From positions 70,297 through 134,296 of IMG/VR virus record IMGVR_UViG_3300016665_000824: a stretch of 64,000 nt of DNA; one strand, given 5' to 3'. The position numbers and the translations under genes were made by a program. The notes beneath the pieces were generated by a model. The model was not told where the DNA came from. It saw only the letters and a list, made by a program, of their open reading frames with translations, and made no database searches. Shown here piece by piece: positions 13,606-63,405 of the stretch (its first letter is position 1; each line of letters begins with the position of its first letter). The stretch is from a virus.

Positions 13606-13934
13606 TTAAGAAGCGTCCAGCGATCGGGCGGCTAGTAAGGTTGCCAAGTAAAATCGTCACTGTTGTGGGGTATAAGGATGGGGTTTTTCTAGTCCGCGTC
13701 GGCACGGGAAAGACTCAGAAAATCACGGAATCGTTTCTTATGGCGCACGGCGTTCTTGTCGAGAAGGAGTGGCGCGAGGAGAAGAAGTCTGCACCCAAAC
13801 AGGAATACGTGAACCGAGAGTTTAAACGCTTCTTTGAGGAGCGAGCCGAAAGGGACTACCAAGAAAAAGTTCTTAAGGGCTTTAAGATTGAGGATGAAGT
13901 TATCGAAGGATTTGAGGCGATCGCGGAGGAATAA
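13602..13934 (+). CDS. hypothetical protein
   Basis: 110-aa Lys/Glu-rich ORF; ends in ...AIAEE with junction motif GCGATCGCGGAGGAATAAATG. Confidence 0.4.
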   Translation: MIKKRPAIGRLVRLPSKIVTVVGYKDGVFLVRVGTGKTQKITESFLMAHGVLVEKEWREEKKSAPKQEYVNREFKRFFEERAERDYQEKVLKGFKIEDEVIEGFEAIAEE

Positions 13935-14141
13935 ATGGATATCGAAGAACTTGTTGCCGCAGCATCCGTAAGTCGGCATATATATCTTGAGCGCGTCGGC
14001 AAAGGTAGGCTACCAAAAGGATTTCCCTGTGGTGAGCTAATGTGCGTTAATTCGGACGGCAACCGAACTTATTTATTTGATTCGGCGAAAGTCTTAAAGT
14101 GGTGTCGAAAGCAAAATAATCAGGCGATCGCGGAGGAATAA
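13935..14141 (+). CDS. hypothetical protein
   Basis: 68-aa ORF; ends ...AIAEE with same junction motif. Confidence 0.35.
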   Translation: MDIEELVAAASVSRHIYLERVGKGRLPKGFPCGELMCVNSDGNRTYLFDSAKVLKWCRKQNNQAIAEE

Positions 14142-14407
14142 TGCGAAAAATAGACAAGGACTACAGTTTTACAGAACGAGAGATTCAGGCGTTAATGTTG
14201 ATATGCACTATTGGACGAGAAGACTGGCTCACTAAAGAGGTGAAGGAGATATTGTCGCAATACATAAGCAGAAAGATGTATCACAGGACTGCTTCTCAAG
14301 TCTTTGCTCACAGAAAAAGAGTTCTGGGTTCTTTCCCTAGCAATGCGGGTAAATACTTACTTGAAAGGCGAACTAGCTTTATTGAGCGATCGCGGAGGAG
14401 TGAGTAA
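14141..14407 (+). CDS. hypothetical protein
   Basis: 88-aa ORF; ends ...RSRRSE within a third copy of GCGATCGCGGAGGA. Confidence 0.35.
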   Translation: MRKIDKDYSFTEREIQALMLICTIGREDWLTKEVKEILSQYISRKMYHRTASQVFAHRKRVLGSFPSNAGKYLLERRTSFIERSRRSE

Positions 14408-14413
14408 AAATAT

Positions 14414-14450
14414 AAAAAGACGATCCGACGTGAGATCGGATCGTCTTTTT
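14414..14450. terminator. bidirectional intrinsic terminator between convergent gene blocks
   Basis: Perfect 15-bp stem aaaaagacgatccga / tcggatcgtcttttt, 7-nt loop, A/T tracts on both sides. Confidence 0.7.
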
Positions 14451-20928: not shown

Positions 20929-22656
20929 ATGAAAGACCCACAACAGATCCAAAGACTCAACGCTCAGATCGAACCTAGCAACGTTGAAGCCGAACAAACG
21001 ATCATTGCGGGGGTTTTTGAAGGTGGAAGCCTTCTTAGCCTAGTCGCCGACGCAATCACACCTGAGATGTTTTTTTCGAGCCTTCTAGGGGCATTTTTTA
21101 GGGCATCGTTGTTTTTGAGAAATAGCGATCGCGACATAAACACCCTAACCTTAGCCGCCGCGCTACAGGAGATGGGTTTTAAAGACTTTTACGGCTTTGA
21201 CAGTATCTCGGCGCTAGTCCACAACACCTATGCCGACATTATGGGCAGCACGTATATTCAAAGTCCAGCCCACTACGAATCTGCCGCCGCCCTAATCCGT
21301 GAAGCCTCCGTAAGGCGAGACCTGATTAAAGCTGGCAGAGCAGCGATCGCCGCAGCCTACGATCAAGAAATATCTGTGCTTGATGCCTGTACTAAAGCTC
21401 AAGATTTGATTGGGGATGCTATGACATCATCTCAGGTTCGTAGTACCGTGTTTGAGGTTGGTACAACCTACACAAACATGTGTGCGGAACTTCTCGATCC
21501 TCAAATTGGAGAGTTCAATCCCGTAATCCCCAGTGGTTATGCGGCGTGGGATGAAATGCTTGAAGGTGGTTTTCGGGGTGCTGAACTCGCGGTTATTGGT
21601 GGAGACTCGGCGATCGGTAAGTCGATGCTCTTGTTTGGTGCGGCATGGAATATGGCGAAATTCCTTTCGGATCAAGGTAGGGTGGGTTATATCGGCTCGA
21701 TGGAAATGTCCACTCGTAGCGTTGTGCATCGCTGGATTGCTTCCGAAGCGCAAGTGGCTTTATCTCGGATGCGTCGCCGAGAATTAAGCGAAGCCGATTG
21801 CGAAAGGATTATGAAGGCATCTAGCGCTGGCGAAATGTTGAATAACCTTGTAATTGACGAGGACAACAAGGCTACTATCCCCCAAATGCTTAACCGAGCC
21901 AAAGAATTTGCACGTAAACATGCTAGAAAATATGGCGGTAGCGGCGAGCTTGGCTTTATGGTTATCGACAACATCAAGATCGCCGAAAAAGGTGGTGACG
22001 ATTTCAACTTGGTTAACCGATACCTCAAAGATCTCAAGGGGATTGCAAAGGATTACAACATCCCGATAATCTCTTTGTCTCAGCTAACTAGAGAATCCCT
22101 GTTAAAAAGTTCTGACAAACGCCCTACTGTTGAGGGGTTGTATGGCGGCAAAGCGATTGAAGAAAATGCTGACGACATTTTTGGCTTGTATCGAGGTGTT
22201 AAGTACGACGATTTCTCTATCCCCACAAACCGAGCTGAGATTATTCGTCTGAAAGGTCGAAACTCAGACCAGTCAAAGGAAAATAGAACGATTTTGCTTG
22301 GCTTCAATGGCGCTCTTTCTACTTTTTACGACCTTGGCGAACCAAAACTAGCCCAAAAATCGGAGCAAAAACAAGCGATCGCCACACCAGTCACCGAAGA
22401 CATTAACTACTTCGGCGATCTCGAAGATGGATGTCAAGTTGTTCTGGATATTTCCTACTCAACACCTGAAGAAAAATCGGAGATCAGCGATCGTATCAAC
22501 GCAAAGCAGCTACCAAAGCCCAATGAAGTCTGTGGAGTAACCCGCCTAAGCGTTTGCGAAACTCCTGAAGTAGGTAAATTTGGGGTTGCCCACCTAATAC
22601 TGCCCGACAACTCCGAAATGAAGGTTGCAGTAGACGAATTGCGCCGAGTCAGTTAG
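20929..22656 (+). CDS. dnaB: replicative DNA helicase DnaB
   Basis: DnaB-like N-terminal domain (NVEAEQTIIAGVF), Walker A GGDSAIGKS, RecA-like core; start set at ATG 20929 (ORF track TTG 20917). Confidence 0.75.
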   Translation: MKDPQQIQRLNAQIEPSNVEAEQTIIAGVFEGGSLLSLVADAITPEMFFSSLLGAFFRASLFLRNSDRDINTLTLAAALQEMGFKDFYGFDSISALVHNTYADIMGSTYIQSPAHYESAAALIREASVRRDLIKAGRAAIAAAYDQEISVLDACTKAQDLIGDAMTSSQVRSTVFEVGTTYTNMCAELLDPQIGEFNPVIPSGYAAWDEMLEGGFRGAELAVIGGDSAIGKSMLLFGAAWNMAKFLSDQGRVGYIGSMEMSTRSVVHRWIASEAQVALSRMRRRELSEADCERIMKASSAGEMLNNLVIDEDNKATIPQMLNRAKEFARKHARKYGGSGELGFMVIDNIKIAEKGGDDFNLVNRYLKDLKGIAKDYNIPIISLSQLTRESLLKSSDKRPTVEGLYGGKAIEENADDIFGLYRGVKYDDFSIPTNRAEIIRLKGRNSDQSKENRTILLGFNGALSTFYDLGEPKLAQKSEQKQAIATPVTEDINYFGDLEDGCQVVLDISYSTPEEKSEISDRINAKQLPKPNEVCGVTRLSVCETPEVGKFGVAHLILPDNSEMKVAVDELRRVS

Positions 22657-22681
22657 TAAAAAGCCCACGAGACCCATTCTT

Positions 22682-23263
22682 GTGGGCAAAAACACACAAA
22701 ATTACAACAAAACTATGCAAGAAGAAATCTCACAACAGGAAATCGCTGCGATCGCAGCCGCAAAACTGAAAAGAATGCAGCGATCGCAACAACAAGAGCC
22801 GATAACGAAGGTCGAGCCAAAAACTCCAAGTCCCGCACCAGCAAAACAGTCAAAATCAGCAACAAACAGCTACTGGAACAAACCTCAAAGCAGCATCGAC
22901 ATCGTGAAAAACCCCAAGCACGTTGCCGATATTTACACCATGACCCCGTGGATACCCCAGCCACAGGTAGATGATATCTGCGCGATCGCCGAAAGACCCT
23001 ACGGCGACTGGATAGACCTCGAAGCGCAGCATATCGAAGGCAAGTGGGATAGGCAAAGATTCATTGAGTCAGCCTATAACTGGCCTTTCCGCGCCAAGAT
23101 GCGATGTGTTGAAATTTCTGAGGACGGACTGATGGCAACAGTATCCGTCTCAGGAGTCCGCAAACGATTACCACTAGTGTGTTTATGGGAGATGAATGAA
23201 ATAGTTGACACTATGACTAATAGTGAGTATGATGAATCTTGGTTTCAGGTAAGACAATTATGA
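22682..23263 (+). CDS. hypothetical protein
   Basis: 193-aa ORF; its 3' end contains an internal promoter-like element. Confidence 0.4.
   Translation: MGKNTQNYNKTMQEEISQQEIAAIAAAKLKRMQRSQQQEPITKVEPKTPSPAPAKQSKSATNSYWNKPQSSIDIVKNPKHVADIYTMTPWIPQPQVDDICAIAERPYGDWIDLEAQHIEGKWDRQRFIESAYNWPFRAKMRCVEISEDGLMATVSVSGVRKRLPLVCLWEMNEIVDTMTNSEYDESWFQVRQL
23205..23233 (+). promoter_or_regulatory. sigma70-type promoter (TTGACA-N17-TATGAT)
   Basis: Canonical -35 and -10 hexamers with 17-nt spacer about 27 nt upstream of ATG 23260. Confidence 0.45.
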
Positions 23264-23574
23264 CAAAGACTTTAATCTGTAGAGAGATTAAGTGCCTGTA
23301 TTTCGACGTTTCAGACCCAATGAGTTCTGGTTGTAAATTCTACGAAAGCGCTCGTCAATGTCACCTACTGTCTGGGATGCTTTCTACTGAAAAGACAGCA
23401 CTGGCGACTGACTACGAAATAATTGCTGAAGATTTGTATACGGCTGAAGACCTGATCAGGGTTGAAAACGATTTTTACATTAAATGTTCTGAAAAGTATT
23501 TACGCGATTGTGAGCTTCAGGGGCTTACACCTGAACCCGTAAGAGAAAATGTTCGAGCATGGTTTCGTAGATGA
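23260..23574 (+). CDS. hypothetical Cys-containing protein
   Basis: ORF 23239..23574; start at ATG 23260 downstream of promoter. Confidence 0.4.
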   Translation: MTKTLICREIKCLYFDVSDPMSSGCKFYESARQCHLLSGMLSTEKTALATDYEIIAEDLYTAEDLIRVENDFYIKCSEKYLRDCELQGLTPEPVRENVRAWFRR

Positions 23575-23661
23575 CTCCAGCAACTAAAGCAAGATTCACA
23601 AATAGGCGATCGCCTTCTCTGCCTCGTTTTTTAACATTTTGTGGCAGTTAAAAGAAAATGT

Positions 23662-23690
23662 TTGACAGTATGCCTAGTAGTGTGTATGAT
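23662..23690 (+). promoter_or_regulatory. sigma70-type promoter (TTGACA-N17-TATGAT), second copy
   Basis: Same hexamers and spacing as 23205-23233; about 80% identical 50-bp context; 26 nt upstream of ATG 23716. Confidence 0.45.
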
Positions 23691-23715
23691 GGTATTTAGT
23701 TTCAGGTAAAACAAT

Positions 23716-24234
23716 ATGACGAATAGCTTGGCTGTGACCTACCAATCGCTCCCACAGAAAGAACAGCTTGAGATACTAGCAGGAGTATCACACCTTATGA
23801 TAAAGGTAATGGCAGGTAAAATCCCAACAACAGAAGAGATGGACTTGGCTTCAAAAGCCCAGACCCATCCAAGCCTATTTTTAAAATGCTTCTCTGCCGA
23901 ACTTATGGGAGAGGAGTGGAGACCAAAGCTATTGCCTCAAGGCGGAGAAGGGTATATTATTCGCTGGAAATCCGATGAATACGAAGAGGTAGAGACCGAC
24001 TCCTATCCCTTTAAAAAGAGGGTTTACAAAGAAGAGGGCAATGGACTTGAAATCCAAAGCTACGAGCAGGCGATCGCCAATTGTGAATTTCTAAATAAGC
24101 AATACCCAGAGAGGACTTACTGGCACTTCTGGGTAAACCAAGACATCCTCAACAACGCAGAAAGCGAGGGTCTTCAACTCATAGACACTGTTGCTCAGCA
24201 TCTCTTTGAGGCTCTATCACAGGCTCATGGTTAG
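23716..24234 (+). CDS. hypothetical protein
   Basis: 172-aa ORF downstream of promoter copy 2. Confidence 0.4.
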   Translation: MTNSLAVTYQSLPQKEQLEILAGVSHLMIKVMAGKIPTTEEMDLASKAQTHPSLFLKCFSAELMGEEWRPKLLPQGGEGYIIRWKSDEYEEVETDSYPFKKRVYKEEGNGLEIQSYEQAIANCEFLNKQYPERTYWHFWVNQDILNNAESEGLQLIDTVAQHLFEALSQAHG

Positions 24235-24237
24235 TTT

Positions 24238-24528
24238 ATGACCCCAGAAACTAGAGCGCGATTCAAAGAATGGGCGATCGCCTACTGGAAGAAAAATCCA
24301 AAGTTACTGAAGCCACCCGATGACTTTCTCACGCAAGGACAGCAGTTGGCGATCGCTATCTACCATGCCATTCCCGCCGATGGGAAGTTTATTAAAGCTG
24401 ATGCGATCGCTACTAAGCTCAAACGCAAAACCAGACAAATAGAAGAGATTCTGGGGCTAATCAAAGAGCCGTGGCATCTCAAGTCAAGTAAAAACAACAA
24501 GGAAGGAGGATATACGAGAAATGAGTGA
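24238..24528 (+). CDS. hypothetical protein
   Basis: 96-aa ORF. Confidence 0.35.
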   Translation: MTPETRARFKEWAIAYWKKNPKLLKPPDDFLTQGQQLAIAIYHAIPADGKFIKADAIATKLKRKTRQIEEILGLIKEPWHLKSSKNNKEGGYTRNE

Positions 24529-24793
24529 CACAGTTGGTTTGATTTTTGGTAAGGAAGATAGCAGGACAGAGCAGGAAATCTCTGAGCTTGCGGAGGTCGT
24601 AAAAGCGGCTGGAATTAAGAGAAACCCTGCCATGTTTGCAAGATTTATTTACACACTCGACAAGACAAAAACCTGTCACCCGTCGATTGACCGTGAAGCC
24701 TTTCTGCTAACACTTCAAGAAGTATGGGAAGAGAAGGGACTCCAAGGACTTTCTCTCGCTGAAGAAATATATCAAAGAGGTTTTACAAGATGA
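24521..24793 (+). CDS. hypothetical protein
   Basis: 90-aa ORF. Confidence 0.35.
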   Translation: MSDTVGLIFGKEDSRTEQEISELAEVVKAAGIKRNPAMFARFIYTLDKTKTCHPSIDREAFLLTLQEVWEEKGLQGLSLAEEIYQRGFTR

Positions 24794-25527
24794 TTGAAAG
24801 GCAAGTTAAACTGCTGGTTCTAGACAAAGACGGTACACTCGTTCGCCCCAAATCTGGCAATACCTTCGTCCAGCACCCCGAAGATCAGGAGCTAATCGAA
24901 GGAGTGGCTGAAGCTATTCAGAGGTATGTTGCTGATGGATGGCAGTTGGCGATCGCGTCAAATCAGGGTGGATGCGAAGTGCGATGGTGTCACCCCGCCG
25001 AATTACCTGTAGGTAGTTACTGCAATGTAGATAACATTGCCATCAAGGTTGAATACCTTCAAGACACTGGTGAGTTTATACTCGTAAATGGGCATCACCC
25101 ACTACCAAAAACTAGGTTTGCGAAGTTCCAATACAAGACTCTCGGCATAGCGATCGCAGAGATGCAGTATGCGATGAAGCTGATCGGCATTCAGTATCAT
25201 GGTCTATTCTGTCCAGACATGCAAGGGAATGAATGCTACATGACTTCGGACTTTGCTGCTCCGCCATTACACAAGGTTGATAGATACAAACACTTAATAG
25301 GCTCGTTCCGTAAGCCCAGTGGTGGAATGTTGCTAGCATTAAAGCAGCACTTTGAAACACATCTTGATGATGTTGATCGGCTGCTCATGATCGGCGATCG
25401 TCCCGAAGATTTGGGATCGGCTCAAGCCGCAGGATTCGATTTTGTGTGGGCAGAAGACTGGCGAAATAACGAACTAGACAAAGTTCTGCCCTACAGGAGC
25501 GAAGAATGGATCGCTCTGAACTCCTAA
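24790..25527 (+). CDS. HAD-superfamily (subfamily IIIA-like) phosphatase
   Basis: Motif I LDKDGTL, motif II ASNQGG, conserved Lys in FRKPSGGML, motif IV MIGDRPED; same fold as polynucleotide 3'-phosphatases and GmhB. Confidence 0.6.
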   Translation: MIERQVKLLVLDKDGTLVRPKSGNTFVQHPEDQELIEGVAEAIQRYVADGWQLAIASNQGGCEVRWCHPAELPVGSYCNVDNIAIKVEYLQDTGEFILVNGHHPLPKTRFAKFQYKTLGIAIAEMQYAMKLIGIQYHGLFCPDMQGNECYMTSDFAAPPLHKVDRYKHLIGSFRKPSGGMLLALKQHFETHLDDVDRLLMIGDRPEDLGSAQAAGFDFVWAEDWRNNELDKVLPYRSEEWIALNS

Positions 25528-61050: not shown

Positions 61051-61250
61051 AAATATTAAAAAGCGATCGCCAATAGGCTATGTGATTTTTACGATTCTAA
61101 ACTTGATATCTCGATATGTCCGACGCAAAGATGACAGCTCCACCTTGGCTTCTTTCTTGTCGTACTGATACTTATTTTGTCTAACCCATACGTTAGGCTG
61201 CTCAAACTTTGTTACTAACTTTTCAATTGCGTACATCGTTGTAACTGGTT

Positions 61251-61440
61251 TAAAAAGCGATCGCTATCCTGAAGAGAGGTGGATAGGCGATCGCAAAATG
61301 TACATCATGAAAAATCCTCTCCCCACAATCTTAACTTGGATTCGCATTAAAAAGCGATCGCTATCCTGAAGAGAGGTGGACAGGCGATCGCTAAAATGAT
61401 TATCTAACATGACCTCTCCCCACAATTTTAACTTGATTTT
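61251..61440. repeat. two tandem ~97-bp repeats, each with a pair of HIP1 sites
   Basis: taaaaagcgatcgctatcctgaagagaggtgga(t/c)aggcgatcgc ... cctctccccacaat(c/t)ttaacttg at 61251 and 61348; ORF-free region upstream of the par operon. Confidence 0.6.
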
Positions 61441-61594
61441 GTGGCAAAAAAATACCGACGTCCTGTGGAGTGGTGGACGACGGGCTATGTAATCTCGATG
61501 GTCTGGAAATATTCTACGCGGTTTTGTGGCGCTTTTATTATCGAATCCCGCATTTAATCGATAATAACGAGAAAATTATTCCTAGATATTATCA

Positions 61595-62892: not shown

Positions 62893-63405
62893 ATGTCTAA
62901 TCTTAATACTGAGTTTTCCGAATTGATTGCGATCGCTGATTTTCACGGTGTAAGCATTGATGAAGCAGTTGCGCTAAAAACTGCTAGCGAAAGCGCTAGT
63001 AAAAAGCTTACTCGTAATCTTTCTACAGCGATCGCTGATCGTCTTGTTGCGACAATCGAAAATGATTGGAGCGCTACTAACTCTAATTATCTTGATGTGC
63101 TAACTCGTAGAATGCAACGCGCTAACCGTAAAGAACGCTTAGCCGATCCTGTTGCAAAACTTGAAGCACCCGTTGAAGTAGTAGTTGAAGCACCCGTTGA
63201 GACTGAAAAAGTTACCGTTGAAGCACCCGTTGAAGTAGTAGTTGAAGCACCCGTTGAGACAGCTATCGACAGATCACCAACGCAGGCACGCCGCAAACGT
63301 GGCGCTACAGTTGCAACGGTTGAAGCACTCGCACCCGTTGAGACTGAAAAAGTTACCGTTGAAGCACCCGTTGCGAGAAAAACTAGATCACGTAGAGCTA
63401 AGTAA
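62893..63405 (+). CDS. protein with tandem EAPVE(V/T) peptide repeats
   Basis: ORF 62878..63405; start at ATG 62893; nucleotide tandem repeats at about 63166-63380 encode repeated EAPVEVVVEAPVETEKVTV units. Confidence 0.45.
   Translation: MSNLNTEFSELIAIADFHGVSIDEAVALKTASESASKKLTRNLSTAIADRLVATIENDWSATNSNYLDVLTRRMQRANRKERLADPVAKLEAPVEVVVEAPVETEKVTVEAPVEVVVEAPVETAIDRSPTQARRKRGATVATVEALAPVETEKVTVEAPVARKTRSRRAK

What the first reader, a model, noticed from the sequence alone, without database searches (positions are those of the whole stretch)
23205..23718. Duplicated consensus promoter, first copy embedded in the preceding gene's 3' end
Two TTGACA-N17-TATGAT elements (23205-23233 and 23662-23690) lie in ~50-bp contexts that are about 80% identical, each ~26 nt upstream of an ATG. 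The first copy is inside the coding 3' end of gene 22682-23263, so it acts as an internal promoter or marks a duplicated module boundary.
Basis: seen in the sequence. Interest (0 to 1): 0.4.

Follow-up and report, generated by a model that had tools for sequence, protein, structure and literature searches.

The report
Duplicated phage promoter heading swapped gene cassettes
In an uncultured cyanobacterial virus, a near-perfect host-type promoter written into the last codons of one gene sits in front of a slot whose genes differ in every relative, and here a past recombination stacked two such genes, each with its own promoter copy; this is a clear example of ordinary phage mosaic evolution, not a new kind of system.

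Summary
TTGACA-N17-TATGAT occurs at 23205-23233 and 23662-23690, inside an ~86-nt repeat (23182-23267 / 23638-23723, ~78-80% identical) that runs through a shared 5' leader to each ATG. A second repeat went unnoticed: 23558-23618 matches 24226-24286, the start of gene B (24238-24528).

The window is a HIP1-rich cyanophage. In all eight distinct relatives, gene X ends with the same promoter at the same spacing. It persists even where X's stop codon falls inside the spacer, leaving the -10 non-coding. Hexamers are 11/12 invariant; the spacer is 4/17.

Downstream lies a slot whose content differs in nearly every relative (0-3 ORFs), followed by conserved gene B, a possible winged-helix protein.

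The layout here is X-P1-A1-[46-nt B' relic]-P2-A2-B. A1 and A2 are unrelated. One relative (L020) has the single-cassette form X-P-A2homolog-B. P2 and B' resemble other lineages more than their partners in the window, so this was recombination between phages, not local duplication.

Transcription itself is untested.

B' relics in three phages all end at a HIP1 octamer. This is a new member of a known kind (PeSL- or moron-like).

The parts
22682..23263 (+). Gene X. It is a conserved phage gene of unknown function that follows the DnaB helicase gene, and its likely true start is ATG 22715. Its last ~20 codons (…VDTMTNSEYDESWFQVRQL*) are written over promoter copy 1. The stop TGA overlaps the ATG of A1 (ATGA).
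   Evidence: ORF list. There are 12 homologues, all metagenomic, with no Pfam or PHROG family. The protein alignment shows the tail after ...CLWEMNxxVD varying in length, from VDI* to a 19-residue extension in the window. A TAG->TGG change in the window extends the ORF.
23182..23262 (+). Promoter/leader element, copy 1 (P1). The -35 TTGACA is at 23205-23210, the spacer is 17 nt, and the -10 TATGAT is at 23228-23233. The conserved leader ...GGTTTCAGGTAAGACAATT occupies 23234-23259, and the ATG of A1 is at 23260.
   Evidence: (nhmmer E = 2.7e-18). P1 is closest to the element of relative L018 (71/80).
23260..23574 (+). Cassette gene A1 (104 aa), an orphan. Its stop TGA overlaps the ATG of the B' relic.
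   Evidence: The only database match is itself, on two contig types. It is unrelated to A2 and has no Pfam or PHROG hit.
23571..23616 (+). B' relic. This is the first ~46 nt of a B-family gene with a 1-nt deletion (frameshift). It ends immediately after the HIP1 octamer GCGATCGC at 23606-23613.
   Evidence: Alignment with B genes of 7 relatives. nhmmer gives E = 5.7e-11. The best match is the B of L017 (score 70), not the window's own B (55), and homology stops at B nt 46-49.
23617..23637 (+). Junction filler of uncertain origin between the B' relic and copy 2. It is T-rich and is not a terminator.
   Evidence: No hairpin stands out from shuffles (z = 0.28), and the terminator scan found nothing here. 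Similarity of 23638-23661 to the 3' end of X is only suggestive when taken alone (best 18/23 with L010; 7 of 300 shuffles reach it).
23638..23718 (+). Promoter/leader element, copy 2 (P2), in non-coding DNA. The -35 TTGACA is at 23662-23667 and the -10 TATGAT at 23685-23690. The leader GGTATTTAGTTTCAGGTAAAACAAT occupies 23691-23715, and the ATG of A2 is at 23716. Read in X's frame it gives KMFDSMPSSVYDGI*, a decayed copy of the usual X tail …VDxxANSVYDGx*.
   Evidence: E = 3e-16. From the -10 onward it matches L016 at 27/29 but P1 only at 24/27. The 24 nt upstream of the -35 have decayed (14-18 of ~22 against every relative) while both hexamers are intact.
23716..24234 (+). Cassette gene A2 (172 aa), function unknown.
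   Evidence: One homologue (P0014, 63% identity) lies in L020 directly behind a single X-tail promoter and directly before a B homologue.
24238..24528 (+). Gene B (96 aa), the conserved right flank of the variable slot. It is a possible winged-helix DNA-binding protein. HIP1 lies at 24274-24281, which is B nt 37-44.
   Evidence: B is present after the slot in all relatives. Only sub-threshold HTH or winged-helix hits were found. The AF2 model is low-confidence (pLDDT 58), and its best Foldseek matches are all winged-helix regulators but with E > 1.

Best explanation
The repeated element is a host sigma-70-type (group 1 sigma) promoter together with a short conserved 5' leader. In this family of uncultured cyanophages it sits at the very end of gene X, overprinted on X's dispensable C-terminal tail: GTT-GAC-A gives Val-Asp and TAT-GAT gives Tyr-Asp.

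It re-initiates or boosts transcription of the long rightward gene cluster. The first position in that cluster is a hypervariable slot for small accessory genes, followed by the conserved gene B.

The window carries two copies because an illegitimate, probably inter-phage, recombination joined two parts:
- the start of gene B of one phage (…X-P-A1-B), broken just after a HIP1 octamer;
- the tail of gene X of a related phage (…X-P-A2-B).

The result is X-P1-A1-B'(46 nt)-P2-A2-B. Each of the two unrelated cassette genes therefore keeps its own promoter, leader and start codon.

Shown: the anatomy, the conservation pattern, the relics, and the existence of the single-cassette form.
Inferred: that RNA polymerase starts about 7 nt after each -10 (near 23240 and 23697), and the exact recombination pathway.
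For: (1) The sites are exact and rare.

(2) Every relative has exactly one copy at the end of X, and only the window lineage has two (nhmmer).

(3) Across 10 distinct copies the -35 is TTGACA in 10/10, the spacer is 17 nt in 10/10, and the -10 is TATGAT in 8 and TATCAT in 2. Hexamers are 11/12 invariant against 4/17 for the spacer (Fisher p = 5e-4).

(4) In L001 and L015 the X stop codon lies right after TTGACATA, so the spacer and -10 are non-coding, yet they are kept at N17. In L001 the spacer sequence is unrecognisable but the hexamers and spacing persist.

(5) Codon use: upstream in X, only 12 of 57 invariant residues keep an invariant codon. The Val, Asp and Tyr codons inside the hexamers are invariant in 3 of 3.

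(6) Conservation continues past the stop codon through TTAGTTTCRG…AAAACAAT to the next ATG and then stops abruptly, because the first downstream gene differs in nearly every relative.

(7) In window copy 2, the former coding sequence upstream of the -35 has decayed while the hexamers and leader have not.

(8) The right boundary is duplicated too, as the B' relic.

(9) L020 shows X-P-A2homolog-B, the predicted parental layout.

(10) P2 is closer to L016 and B' is closer to L017's B than either is to its partner in the window. This argues against local duplication.

(11) The tandem layout is present in independent assemblies from different samples and in a different upstream background (L021, L022), so it is not an assembly artefact.

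(12) The window is a phage, with portal, large terminase, tail fibre, endolysin and a replication module.
Against: - There is no transcript evidence of any kind. Promoter function rests on consensus match and conservation.
- The host is unknown, and cyanobacterial promoters often lack a -35, so the strength of this one in the real host is inferred.
- Part of the conservation (the spacer core CTAATAG) could come from coding constraint on the X tail (Ala-Asn-Ser).
- In variant L022 the -35 of P1 is TTGATA, through a synonymous GAC->GAT change, so that hexamer is not inviolable.
- A1 could also be expressed by read-through and translational coupling from X, through the ATGA overlap.
- No relative with X-P-A1-B was found, because A1 is an orphan.
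- Similarity of the DNA just upstream of P2 to the X tail is not significant on its own.
- Only 8 distinct relatives were available, and they are not independent samples.
Confidence: 0.75

Rival explanations
1. An acr-aca-like anti-defence operon. P would be a strong early promoter driving fast-evolving anti-defence genes (the slot cassettes). The conserved downstream gene B would be a winged-helix autorepressor that binds the dyad symmetry in the promoter spacer, as Aca proteins do at anti-CRISPR promoters. This extends the best explanation rather than excluding it.
For: The architecture matches: a strong conserved promoter, then hypervariable small orphan genes, then a conserved small gene. 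B gives consistent but sub-threshold HTH or winged-helix signals. These are HrcA_DNA-bdg in 4 of 8 members (best E = 0.013), Sigma70_r3 at 5e-4 in one member, and Fe_dep_repress at 0.006. The PDB profile hits are SigA and a 'putative transcriptional regulator' at E = 0.9-2.6. The top Foldseek matches are all winged-helix regulators. A perfect inverted repeat of >=6 bp lies in the spacer of 7 of 10 elements, against 17.5% of shuffles. Aca repression of acr promoters through inverted repeats is established (PMC6765145, PMC9410906).
Against: No hit for B passes any curated threshold. The AF2 model is poor (pLDDT 58) and all Foldseek E-values exceed 1. The inverted repeats have three different centres (positions 12, 15 and 24 counted from the start of the -35 hexamer), are absent from P2, L001 and L017, and have fold z-scores that are not significant except in L015. 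The only conserved dyad core, CTAATAG, also encodes Ala-Asn-Ser of the X tail. B is not the end of an operon, since the next gene overlaps its stop. No cassette protein matches anything known.
Confidence: 0.2
2. No promoter at all. The similarity would be a conserved C-terminal peptide motif of protein X (…VDxxANSxYD). Copy 2 would be a dead fragment of an X gene carried along by recombination, and the match to the sigma-70 consensus would be coincidental.
For: Most relatives do translate the element as the X tail. Copy 2 reads as a decayed X tail in the same frame. No expression data exist.
Against: Two relatives stop X right after Val-Asp-Ile yet keep the -10 at N17. L001 has lost the peptide-coding spacer sequence but keeps both hexamers. 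Conservation extends about 25 nt beyond the stop codon to the next ATG. In non-coding copy 2 the hexamers are intact while the flanking former coding sequence has decayed. Codons inside the hexamers are invariant, unlike the rest of X. The tail length is highly variable, so it is unlikely to be a functional peptide.
Confidence: 0.1
3. A PeSL-type mobile regulatory cassette. The promoter element itself would be the recombination substrate. Homologous exchange between promoter copies would excise and insert promoter-plus-ORF mini-circles, which would have created the tandem arrangement.
For: Integration of a circle [X'tail-P-A1-B'] by homologous recombination within P of a recipient X-P-A2-B would give exactly the observed order. 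Like PeSLs, the element runs from the upstream stop codon through a sigma-70 promoter to the start codon of a variable ORFan (PMC2839356). L017 and L018 share the same 87-aa cassette (93%) behind different promoter and X-tail types.
Against: There is only one copy per relative and two in this window, not dozens per genome. There is no stable G+C-rich stem-loop or terminator function. In L018 the second cassette carries only the last 16 nt of the leader and no -35 or -10, so the junctions are not within the promoter. The one reproducible breakpoint is the HIP1 site in B, not P.
Confidence: 0.15
4. A recent local tandem duplication within one genome, by replication slippage or unequal exchange between sister genomes, followed by divergence of the interior.
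For: The two units are adjacent, head to tail, and share both edges.
Against: A1 and A2 are unrelated. P2 is closer to L016 than to P1, and B' is closer to the B of L017 and L013 than to the window's own B. L020 carries A2 alone.
Confidence: 0.05

Closest known systems
PeSL (promoter-early stem-loop) cassettes of T4-type phages (Arbiol et al. 2010, PMC2839356; Comeau et al. 2014, PMC4122927)
   Same: Both are short conserved units running from the stop codon of the upstream gene through a consensus sigma-70 promoter to the start codon of a variable ORFan. Both sit at the edges of the most plastic part of the genome. Both mark the points where unrelated genes have been swapped or stacked.
   Different: There are one or two copies here, not about 50 per genome. 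There is no stable stem-loop or terminator. The phage is not T4-like as far as can be seen. The promoter here is overprinted on coding sequence. The reproducible breakpoint is a HIP1 site in the right-hand flank, not the promoter.
Phage 'morons' (own knowledge: Juhala et al. 2000, HK97/HK022; Hendrix et al. 2000)
   Same: An extra gene with its own promoter is inserted between two genes that are adjacent in related phages. L001 has X-P-B with nothing in between.
   Different: The defining downstream terminator is absent. The promoter is not brought in by the cassette but is a resident, conserved feature of the locus. The window's second copy is the exception.
Anti-CRISPR acr-aca operons (PMC6765145, PMC9410906)
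   Same: The order is the same: a strong promoter, then variable small genes, then a conserved small putative DNA-binding gene. There is dyad symmetry within the promoter.
   Different: B is not shown to be an HTH protein and belongs to no known Aca family. The dyads are not conserved in position. No anti-defence activity is known. Transcription continues into a long downstream cluster.
Internal promoters embedded in the 3' coding end of the upstream gene (general bacterial and phage operon architecture; own knowledge)
   Same: The -35 and -10 hexamers double as codons of the upstream gene, giving a second entry point for RNA polymerase within an operon.
   Different: Nothing essential differs. 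This is the ordinary category to which copy 1 belongs.

Membership tests
Sigma-70-type (group 1 sigma) promoter | -35 hexamer close to TTGACA | tested here: met
   6/6 in both window copies and in all 8 relatives.
Sigma-70-type (group 1 sigma) promoter | 17 +/- 1 nt spacer | tested here: met
   Exactly 17 nt in 10 of 10 distinct copies.
Sigma-70-type (group 1 sigma) promoter | -10 hexamer close to TATAAT with A2 and T6 | tested here: met
   TATGAT (5/6) in 8 copies and TATCAT in 2.
Sigma-70-type (group 1 sigma) promoter | Conservation beyond what neighbouring or coding sequence explains | tested here: met
   Hexamers are 11/12 invariant against 4/17 for the spacer (p = 5e-4). The element is kept where it is non-coding, in L001, L015 and P2. 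Codons in the hexamers are invariant 3/3 against 12/57 elsewhere in X.
Sigma-70-type (group 1 sigma) promoter | A transcription start 5-9 nt downstream of the -10 | not testable with these tools
   No transcript data were available. The host is uncultured or unknown.
PeSL cassette | Consensus sigma-70 promoter spanning from the upstream stop codon to the downstream start codon, next to variable ORFans | tested here: met
   The definition is taken from PMC2839356.
PeSL cassette | Stable stem-loop acting as terminator or attenuator | tested here: not met
   Fold z-scores range from -1.15 to +0.74 for 9 of 10 elements; only L015 reaches -2.6. Stems are 6-7 bp and A+T-rich with no T-run, and the terminator scan found nothing.
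PeSL cassette | Many dispersed copies per genome, clustered in hyperplastic regions | tested here: not met
   Two copies in 64 kb and one per relative locus. The rest of the ~134-kb genome was not available.
Moron | Gene inserted between two genes that are adjacent in relatives, with its own promoter | tested here: met
   L001 has X-P-B with nothing between. The window has two inserted genes, each preceded by P.
Moron | Own transcription terminator downstream of the inserted gene | tested here: not met
   There is no terminator-like site at 23575-23660, and the fold of 23570-23640 is indistinguishable from shuffles.
acr-aca operon | Conserved downstream gene encoding an HTH regulator (Aca) | tested here: inconclusive
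   Only sub-threshold winged-helix or HTH hits were found. The model has pLDDT 58, and the Foldseek top hits are winged-helix proteins with E > 1.
acr-aca operon | Inverted-repeat operator in or next to the promoter | tested here: inconclusive
   Perfect inverted repeats of >=6 bp occur in 7 of 10 elements against 17.5% of shuffles. They have three different centres and are absent from P2.
acr-aca operon | Upstream genes inhibit a defence system | not testable with these tools
   A1 and A2 have no annotated homologues.
In-situ tandem duplication | The two copies are each other's closest relatives | tested here: not met
   P2 is nearest to L016 and B' is nearest to the B of L017.

The most novel reading that the evidence does not exclude
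The HIP1 octamer GCGATCGC may act as a recombination breakpoint that lets these phages stack new cassettes. HIP1 occurs 186 times in this 64-kb phage window, and its function has been debated for 30 years. Three B' relics were found, in the window, L018 and L010. Each derives from a different B-type, yet all end at the same HIP1 site at nt 37-44 of gene B. If HIP1 sites are preferred points of breakage or joining, whether Chi-like, microhomology-driven or methylation/restriction-linked, then natural phage mosaics would give a direct read-out of HIP1 function. The P-slot-B locus would then be a HIP1-assisted gene-capture site, possibly for anti-defence genes controlled by B.
Probability: 0.2. 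Interest if true: 0.65.

Novelty: new member of a known kind. Interest (0 to 1): 0.33.

Why it matters
The locus gives a clean, datable example of how a phage gains an accessory gene. Both parental boundaries survive as relics, and one parental layout still exists in nature.

It identifies a conserved promoter and leader that could serve two uses. One is as a landmark for finding fast-evolving, possibly anti-defence, genes in an uncultured group of freshwater cyanophages. The other is as a candidate strong promoter part for cyanobacterial work.

It also warns annotators of three things:
- the last ~15 codons of gene X are a by-product of a promoter;
- the 26-codon ORF at 23571 is a gene fragment;
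- A2 starts at 23716, not at the internal ATG used in public gene calls.

The recurrent HIP1 breakpoint is the one lead that could reach beyond routine phage mosaicism.

Tried and rejected
Searches that found nothing:
- Nucleotide searches of the region and of a 20-kb stretch against GenBank phages (INPHARED) and PLSDB plasmids gave no match.
- The scan of GTDB species genomes for X found no relative, so this is not a known prophage. The metagenome and IMG/VR scans added only loci already found.
- The first exact-pattern search of IMG/VR for the promoter gave no hit.
- A look-up of P0001 found it not on record.
- Rfam at permissive E-values over 22000-25000 gave no match, so a riboswitch or known leader RNA is rejected.

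Hypotheses tested and rejected:
- A1 and A2 being diverged paralogues: rejected (BLASTP E = 0.1).
- A terminator between A1 and P2, which would make A1 a classic moron: none found.
- A stable RNA or DNA hairpin as part of the element: not supported.
- More copies of the element elsewhere in the window or in the relatives' loci: none.
- Extending the X' relic upstream of P2: not significant on its own.

Attempts that fell short:
- The single-sequence model of B was of low confidence, so the fold search is only suggestive.
- A looser pattern search found an unrelated 139-kb phage with a similar-looking promoter pair. I treat this as convergent, not homologous.
Full report
**1. The observation**

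The two TTGACA-N17-TATGAT sites are at exactly the stated coordinates. They are the only matches in the window at up to one mismatch, against 0.33 expected. My own scan of both strands finds just three sites scoring 11 of 12 against the sigma-70 consensus in 64 kb, and two of them are these.

The sites lie in a direct repeat that the repeat finder reports as 60 nt at 80% identity (23199-23258 vs 23656-23715). A gapped local alignment extends it to 23182-23267 vs 23638-23723, with score 73. Shuffles average 17.6 with a maximum of 29, and none of 500 reaches the observed score.

The repeat therefore covers about 24 nt upstream of the -35, the promoter, a 25-26-nt leader and the start codon of the next gene. 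Copy 1 lies inside ORF 22682-23263.

**2. A second repeat defines two stacked units**

Positions 23558-23618 match 24226-24286, which hold the end of the preceding gene and the first ~48 nt of gene B (24238-24528). The score is 55, reached by 0 of 500 shuffles, and the match remains significant without the HIP1 octamer.

The local order is therefore:
- X (22682-23263)
- P1
- A1 (23260-23574, 104 aa)
- B' relic (23571-23616)
- about 20 nt of filler
- P2
- A2 (23716-24234, 172 aa)
- B

A1 and A2 are unrelated to each other. Neither has a Pfam or PHROG family.

**3. What the window is**

All genes in this stretch are on the + strand. The window encodes a portal protein, large terminase, tail fibre, endolysin, sliding clamp, primase, DnaB helicase, a replication initiator and DNA methyltransferases. 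It contains 186 copies of the cyanobacterial HIP1 octamer GCGATCGC, where about 1 is expected. It is a cyanophage.

It has no nucleotide match in GenBank phages or in PLSDB plasmids. X has no relative in 185,579 species-representative genomes. Relatives occur only in metagenomes and in IMG/VR viral contigs of 37-134 kb.

**4. The element in relatives**

Gene X has 12 homologues. I recovered eight distinct genomic contexts: L001, L010, L013, L015, L016, L017, L018 and L020. All share the synteny DnaB (with an extra CoiA-like gene in some), X, element, variable slot, B, PNK3P-like gene, D.

In every one, the 3' end of X carries TTGACA, exactly 17 nt, then TATGAT (TATCAT in two). This is followed by a conserved non-coding tail, TTAGTTTCRG…AAAACAAT, up to the next start codon. 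A profile of the element finds exactly one copy per relative locus and two only in the window lineage.

**5. Is the conservation due to the protein or to the DNA?**

Four observations point to the DNA.

(a) In L001 and L015, X stops immediately after Val-Asp-Ile, within TTGACATAA/TAG. The spacer and the -10 are therefore non-coding, yet the -10 sits at the same 17-nt distance. In L001 the spacer has diverged beyond recognition while both hexamers are intact.

(b) Over ten distinct copies, 11 of 12 hexamer positions are invariant against 4 of 17 spacer positions (Fisher p = 5e-4).

(c) In the upstream part of X, only 12 of 57 invariant, degenerate residues keep the same codon in all eight sequences. 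The Val (GTT), Asp (GAC) and Tyr (TAT) codons that form the hexamers are invariant in all.

(d) In window copy 2, which no longer belongs to any gene, the 24 nt upstream of the -35 have decayed (14-18 of ~22 identical to any relative). The -35 to -10 block (25/28) and the leader (27/29 with L016) have not.

The X tail after …CLWEMNxxVD also varies from 1 to 19 residues. It looks like a by-product of the promoter rather than a functional peptide. In the window a TAG->TGG change lets X run on to a TGA that overlaps the ATG of A1.

**6. The slot**

The first gene after the element differs in nearly every relative:
- L001: none; B follows directly, with its ATG only 8 nt after the -10.
- L013: a 35-aa ORF.
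- L016: a 54-aa ORF.
- L015: an 81-aa ORF.
- L017: an 87-aa ORF.
- L018: about 490 nt holding two ORFs.
- L010: about 1 kb holding three.
- L020: a 169-aa homologue of A2.

L017 and L018 share the 87-aa cassette (93% identity) although their X-tail and promoter types differ. The promoter and leader on the left, and the start of B on the right, are thus the conserved flanks of a hypervariable accessory-gene position.

**7. Origin of the duplication**

L020 shows the unstacked arrangement, X tail, TTGACA-N17-TATGAT, leader, A2 homologue (63% identity), B homologue, PNK. A1 is an orphan, so the other parent was not found.

The junction between A1 and B' looks like a native gene junction, because the A1 stop TGA overlaps the B' ATG. 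A1 was therefore once followed by an intact B.

B' matches the B genes of L017 (score 70) and L013 (67) better than the window's own B (55). P2 matches L016 (67/78) better than it matches P1 (65/79), while P1 is closest to L018 (71/80). So the two units come from different lineages.

The simplest history is one illegitimate exchange between two related phages. It joined B of the A1-bearing phage, about 46 nt into the gene, to the last few dozen nucleotides of X of the A2-bearing phage. Insertion of a circular [X'-P-A1-B'] intermediate by homologous recombination in P would give the same product, and I cannot distinguish the two.

The tandem layout is found in independent assemblies from different samples. 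One of them (L022) has a different upstream background, with a CoiA-like nuclease gene plus a short X. It is nearly 100% identical across the whole duplicated segment. This excludes an assembly artefact.

**8. How it most likely works**

P is a strong host-RNA-polymerase promoter inside a long rightward gene cluster. That cluster starts at the divergent region near 17.4-18.0 kb. P gives the accessory slot, B and the downstream small genes an additional transcription start, about 7 nt after the -10, near 23240 and 23697.

The stacking event preserved a full promoter, leader and start codon for A2. A2 therefore does not depend on read-through across A1 and the B' relic. No terminator separates the two units, so A2 and B probably receive transcripts from both copies. 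All of this is inferred; nothing here measures RNA.

One caution applies. L022 carries TTGATA in P1 through a synonymous change, which may reflect relaxed need for P1.

**9. Further layers considered**

B may be a winged-helix protein. Its predicted helices fit helix, helix-turn-helix, wing. Four of eight family members hit the HrcA winged-helix model (best E = 0.013). One hits Sigma70_r3 (5e-4) and one hits Fe_dep_repress (0.006). The best PDB profile hits are SigA and a putative regulator (E about 1-3). The top Foldseek matches of a low-confidence model (pLDDT 58) are all winged-helix regulators, but with E > 1. None of this passes a threshold.

Seven of ten elements have a perfect inverted repeat of 6 bp or more in the spacer, against 17.5% of shuffles. 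The dyads have three different centres and are missing from P2, and the fold energies are ordinary.

Together these make an acr-aca-like reading possible but unproven: a strong promoter, variable anti-defence genes, and a conserved autorepressor (PMC6765145, PMC9410906).

The element also resembles PeSL cassettes of T4-type phages in its span and in its association with gene shuffling (PMC2839356; PMC4122927). However, it lacks their stem-loop and their copy number. No Rfam family matches the region.

**10. HIP1 breakpoints**

A profile of the first 50 nt of B finds extra relics not only in the window but also in L018 (1577-1623) and L010 (3098-3129). Both are relatives with more than one cassette.

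In L018 the second cassette keeps only the last 16 nt of the leader (CAGGTAAAACAATATG) and no promoter. This shows that stacking recurred with different right-hand breakpoints.

In all three cases homology to B ends at B nt 44-49, the 3' edge of the HIP1 octamer. The three relics are most similar to three different B types. With three events this is a lead, not a result. It fits reports that HIP1 can stimulate recombination (bioRxiv 10.1101/2024.09.10.611283; discussion in PMC5861425).

**11. Verdict**

The thing itself is a conserved phage promoter overprinted on a gene tail, at the head of a hypervariable slot, and duplicated by inter-phage recombination. It belongs to well-known categories: internal promoters, moron/PeSL-like modular exchange, and phage mosaicism. 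It is a new, well-documented member of a known kind, of modest interest. The HIP1 breakpoint coincidence and the possible regulator B are the only leads with wider reach.

Noticed in passing
window, whole (e.g. 23606-23613, 24274-24281): The cyanobacterial HIP1 octamer GCGATCGC occurs 186 times in 64 kb, one per 344 bp, against 1.1 expected from shuffles. A phage genome is as HIP1-saturated as its presumed host.
   Followed up: partly
window 23571-23616; L018 1577-1623; L010 3098-3129: Three relics of the 5' end of gene B, each most similar to a different B type, all end at the 3' edge of the same HIP1 site (B nt 44-49). HIP1 may be a recurrent recombination breakpoint.
   Followed up: partly
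L018 1624-1655: The second cassette of L018 (87 aa) is preceded only by the last 16 nt of the conserved leader (CAGGTAAAACAATATG), with no -35 or -10. This is a stacked cassette that did not keep a promoter copy.
   Followed up: yes
L022 (SRR27476765 contig), aligned to window 23205-23210: A variant phage has the same tandem P1-A1-B'-P2-A2-B at nearly 100% identity. It differs in carrying a CoiA-like nuclease gene plus a short X upstream, and the -35 of P1 is changed to TTGATA by a synonymous substitution.
   Followed up: partly
L001 5485-5524: In the relative with an empty slot, the -10 (TATCAT) is only 8 nt from the ATG of the B homologue, which suggests a leaderless mRNA.
   Followed up: no
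window 24238-24528: Gene B, conserved in all relatives, gives consistent sub-threshold winged-helix or HTH signals. It could be a regulator, but no hit passes a curated cut-off.
   Followed up: partly
window 22682 vs 22715; 23239 vs 23260; 23716: Start-codon issues. X probably starts at ATG 22715, as its homologues do. A1 starts at ATG 23260, not TTG 23239. Public gene calls start A2 at an internal ATG (145 aa, P0013), although the conserved leader and the L020 homologue indicate 23716.
   Followed up: yes
window 13917-13949, 14124-14156, 14386-14418: A three-fold repeat GCGATCGCGGAGGA(A/G)T(A/G)A sits around the starts of three small consecutive ORFs. It combines HIP1 with a Shine-Dalgarno-like GGAGG and looks like another repeated gene-boundary motif (family D3).
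   Followed up: no
window 61219-61478 and 63149-63377: Two repeat arrays lie near the right end of the window. One has three 97-nt-spaced copies of a 66-nt unit (67-73% identical). The other is a nested array with 12-nt spacings built on TTGAAGCACCCGTTGAAGTAGTAG, probably a coding repeat (families D1, D2, D4).
   Followed up: no
L016 1482-2382; L018 2433-2624: In L016 the PNK3P-like gene appears split: a 61-aa N-terminal fragment is followed by an HNH_3 endonuclease gene. This suggests a homing-endonuclease insertion. The short 63-aa PNK3P call in L018 is not evidence for a split there, because the contig ends shortly after it.
   Followed up: no
L023 1018-1047 and 3022-3051 (IMGVR_UViG_3300028805_000065, 139 kb): An unrelated phage, with no HIP1 and unrelated genes, has two intergenic TTGACA-N17-TATCAT promoters. 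Their spacers hold a perfect 7-bp dyad CCACCTA-A-TAGGTGG centred on the same CTAATAG core. It looks PeSL-like and probably convergent.
   Followed up: partly
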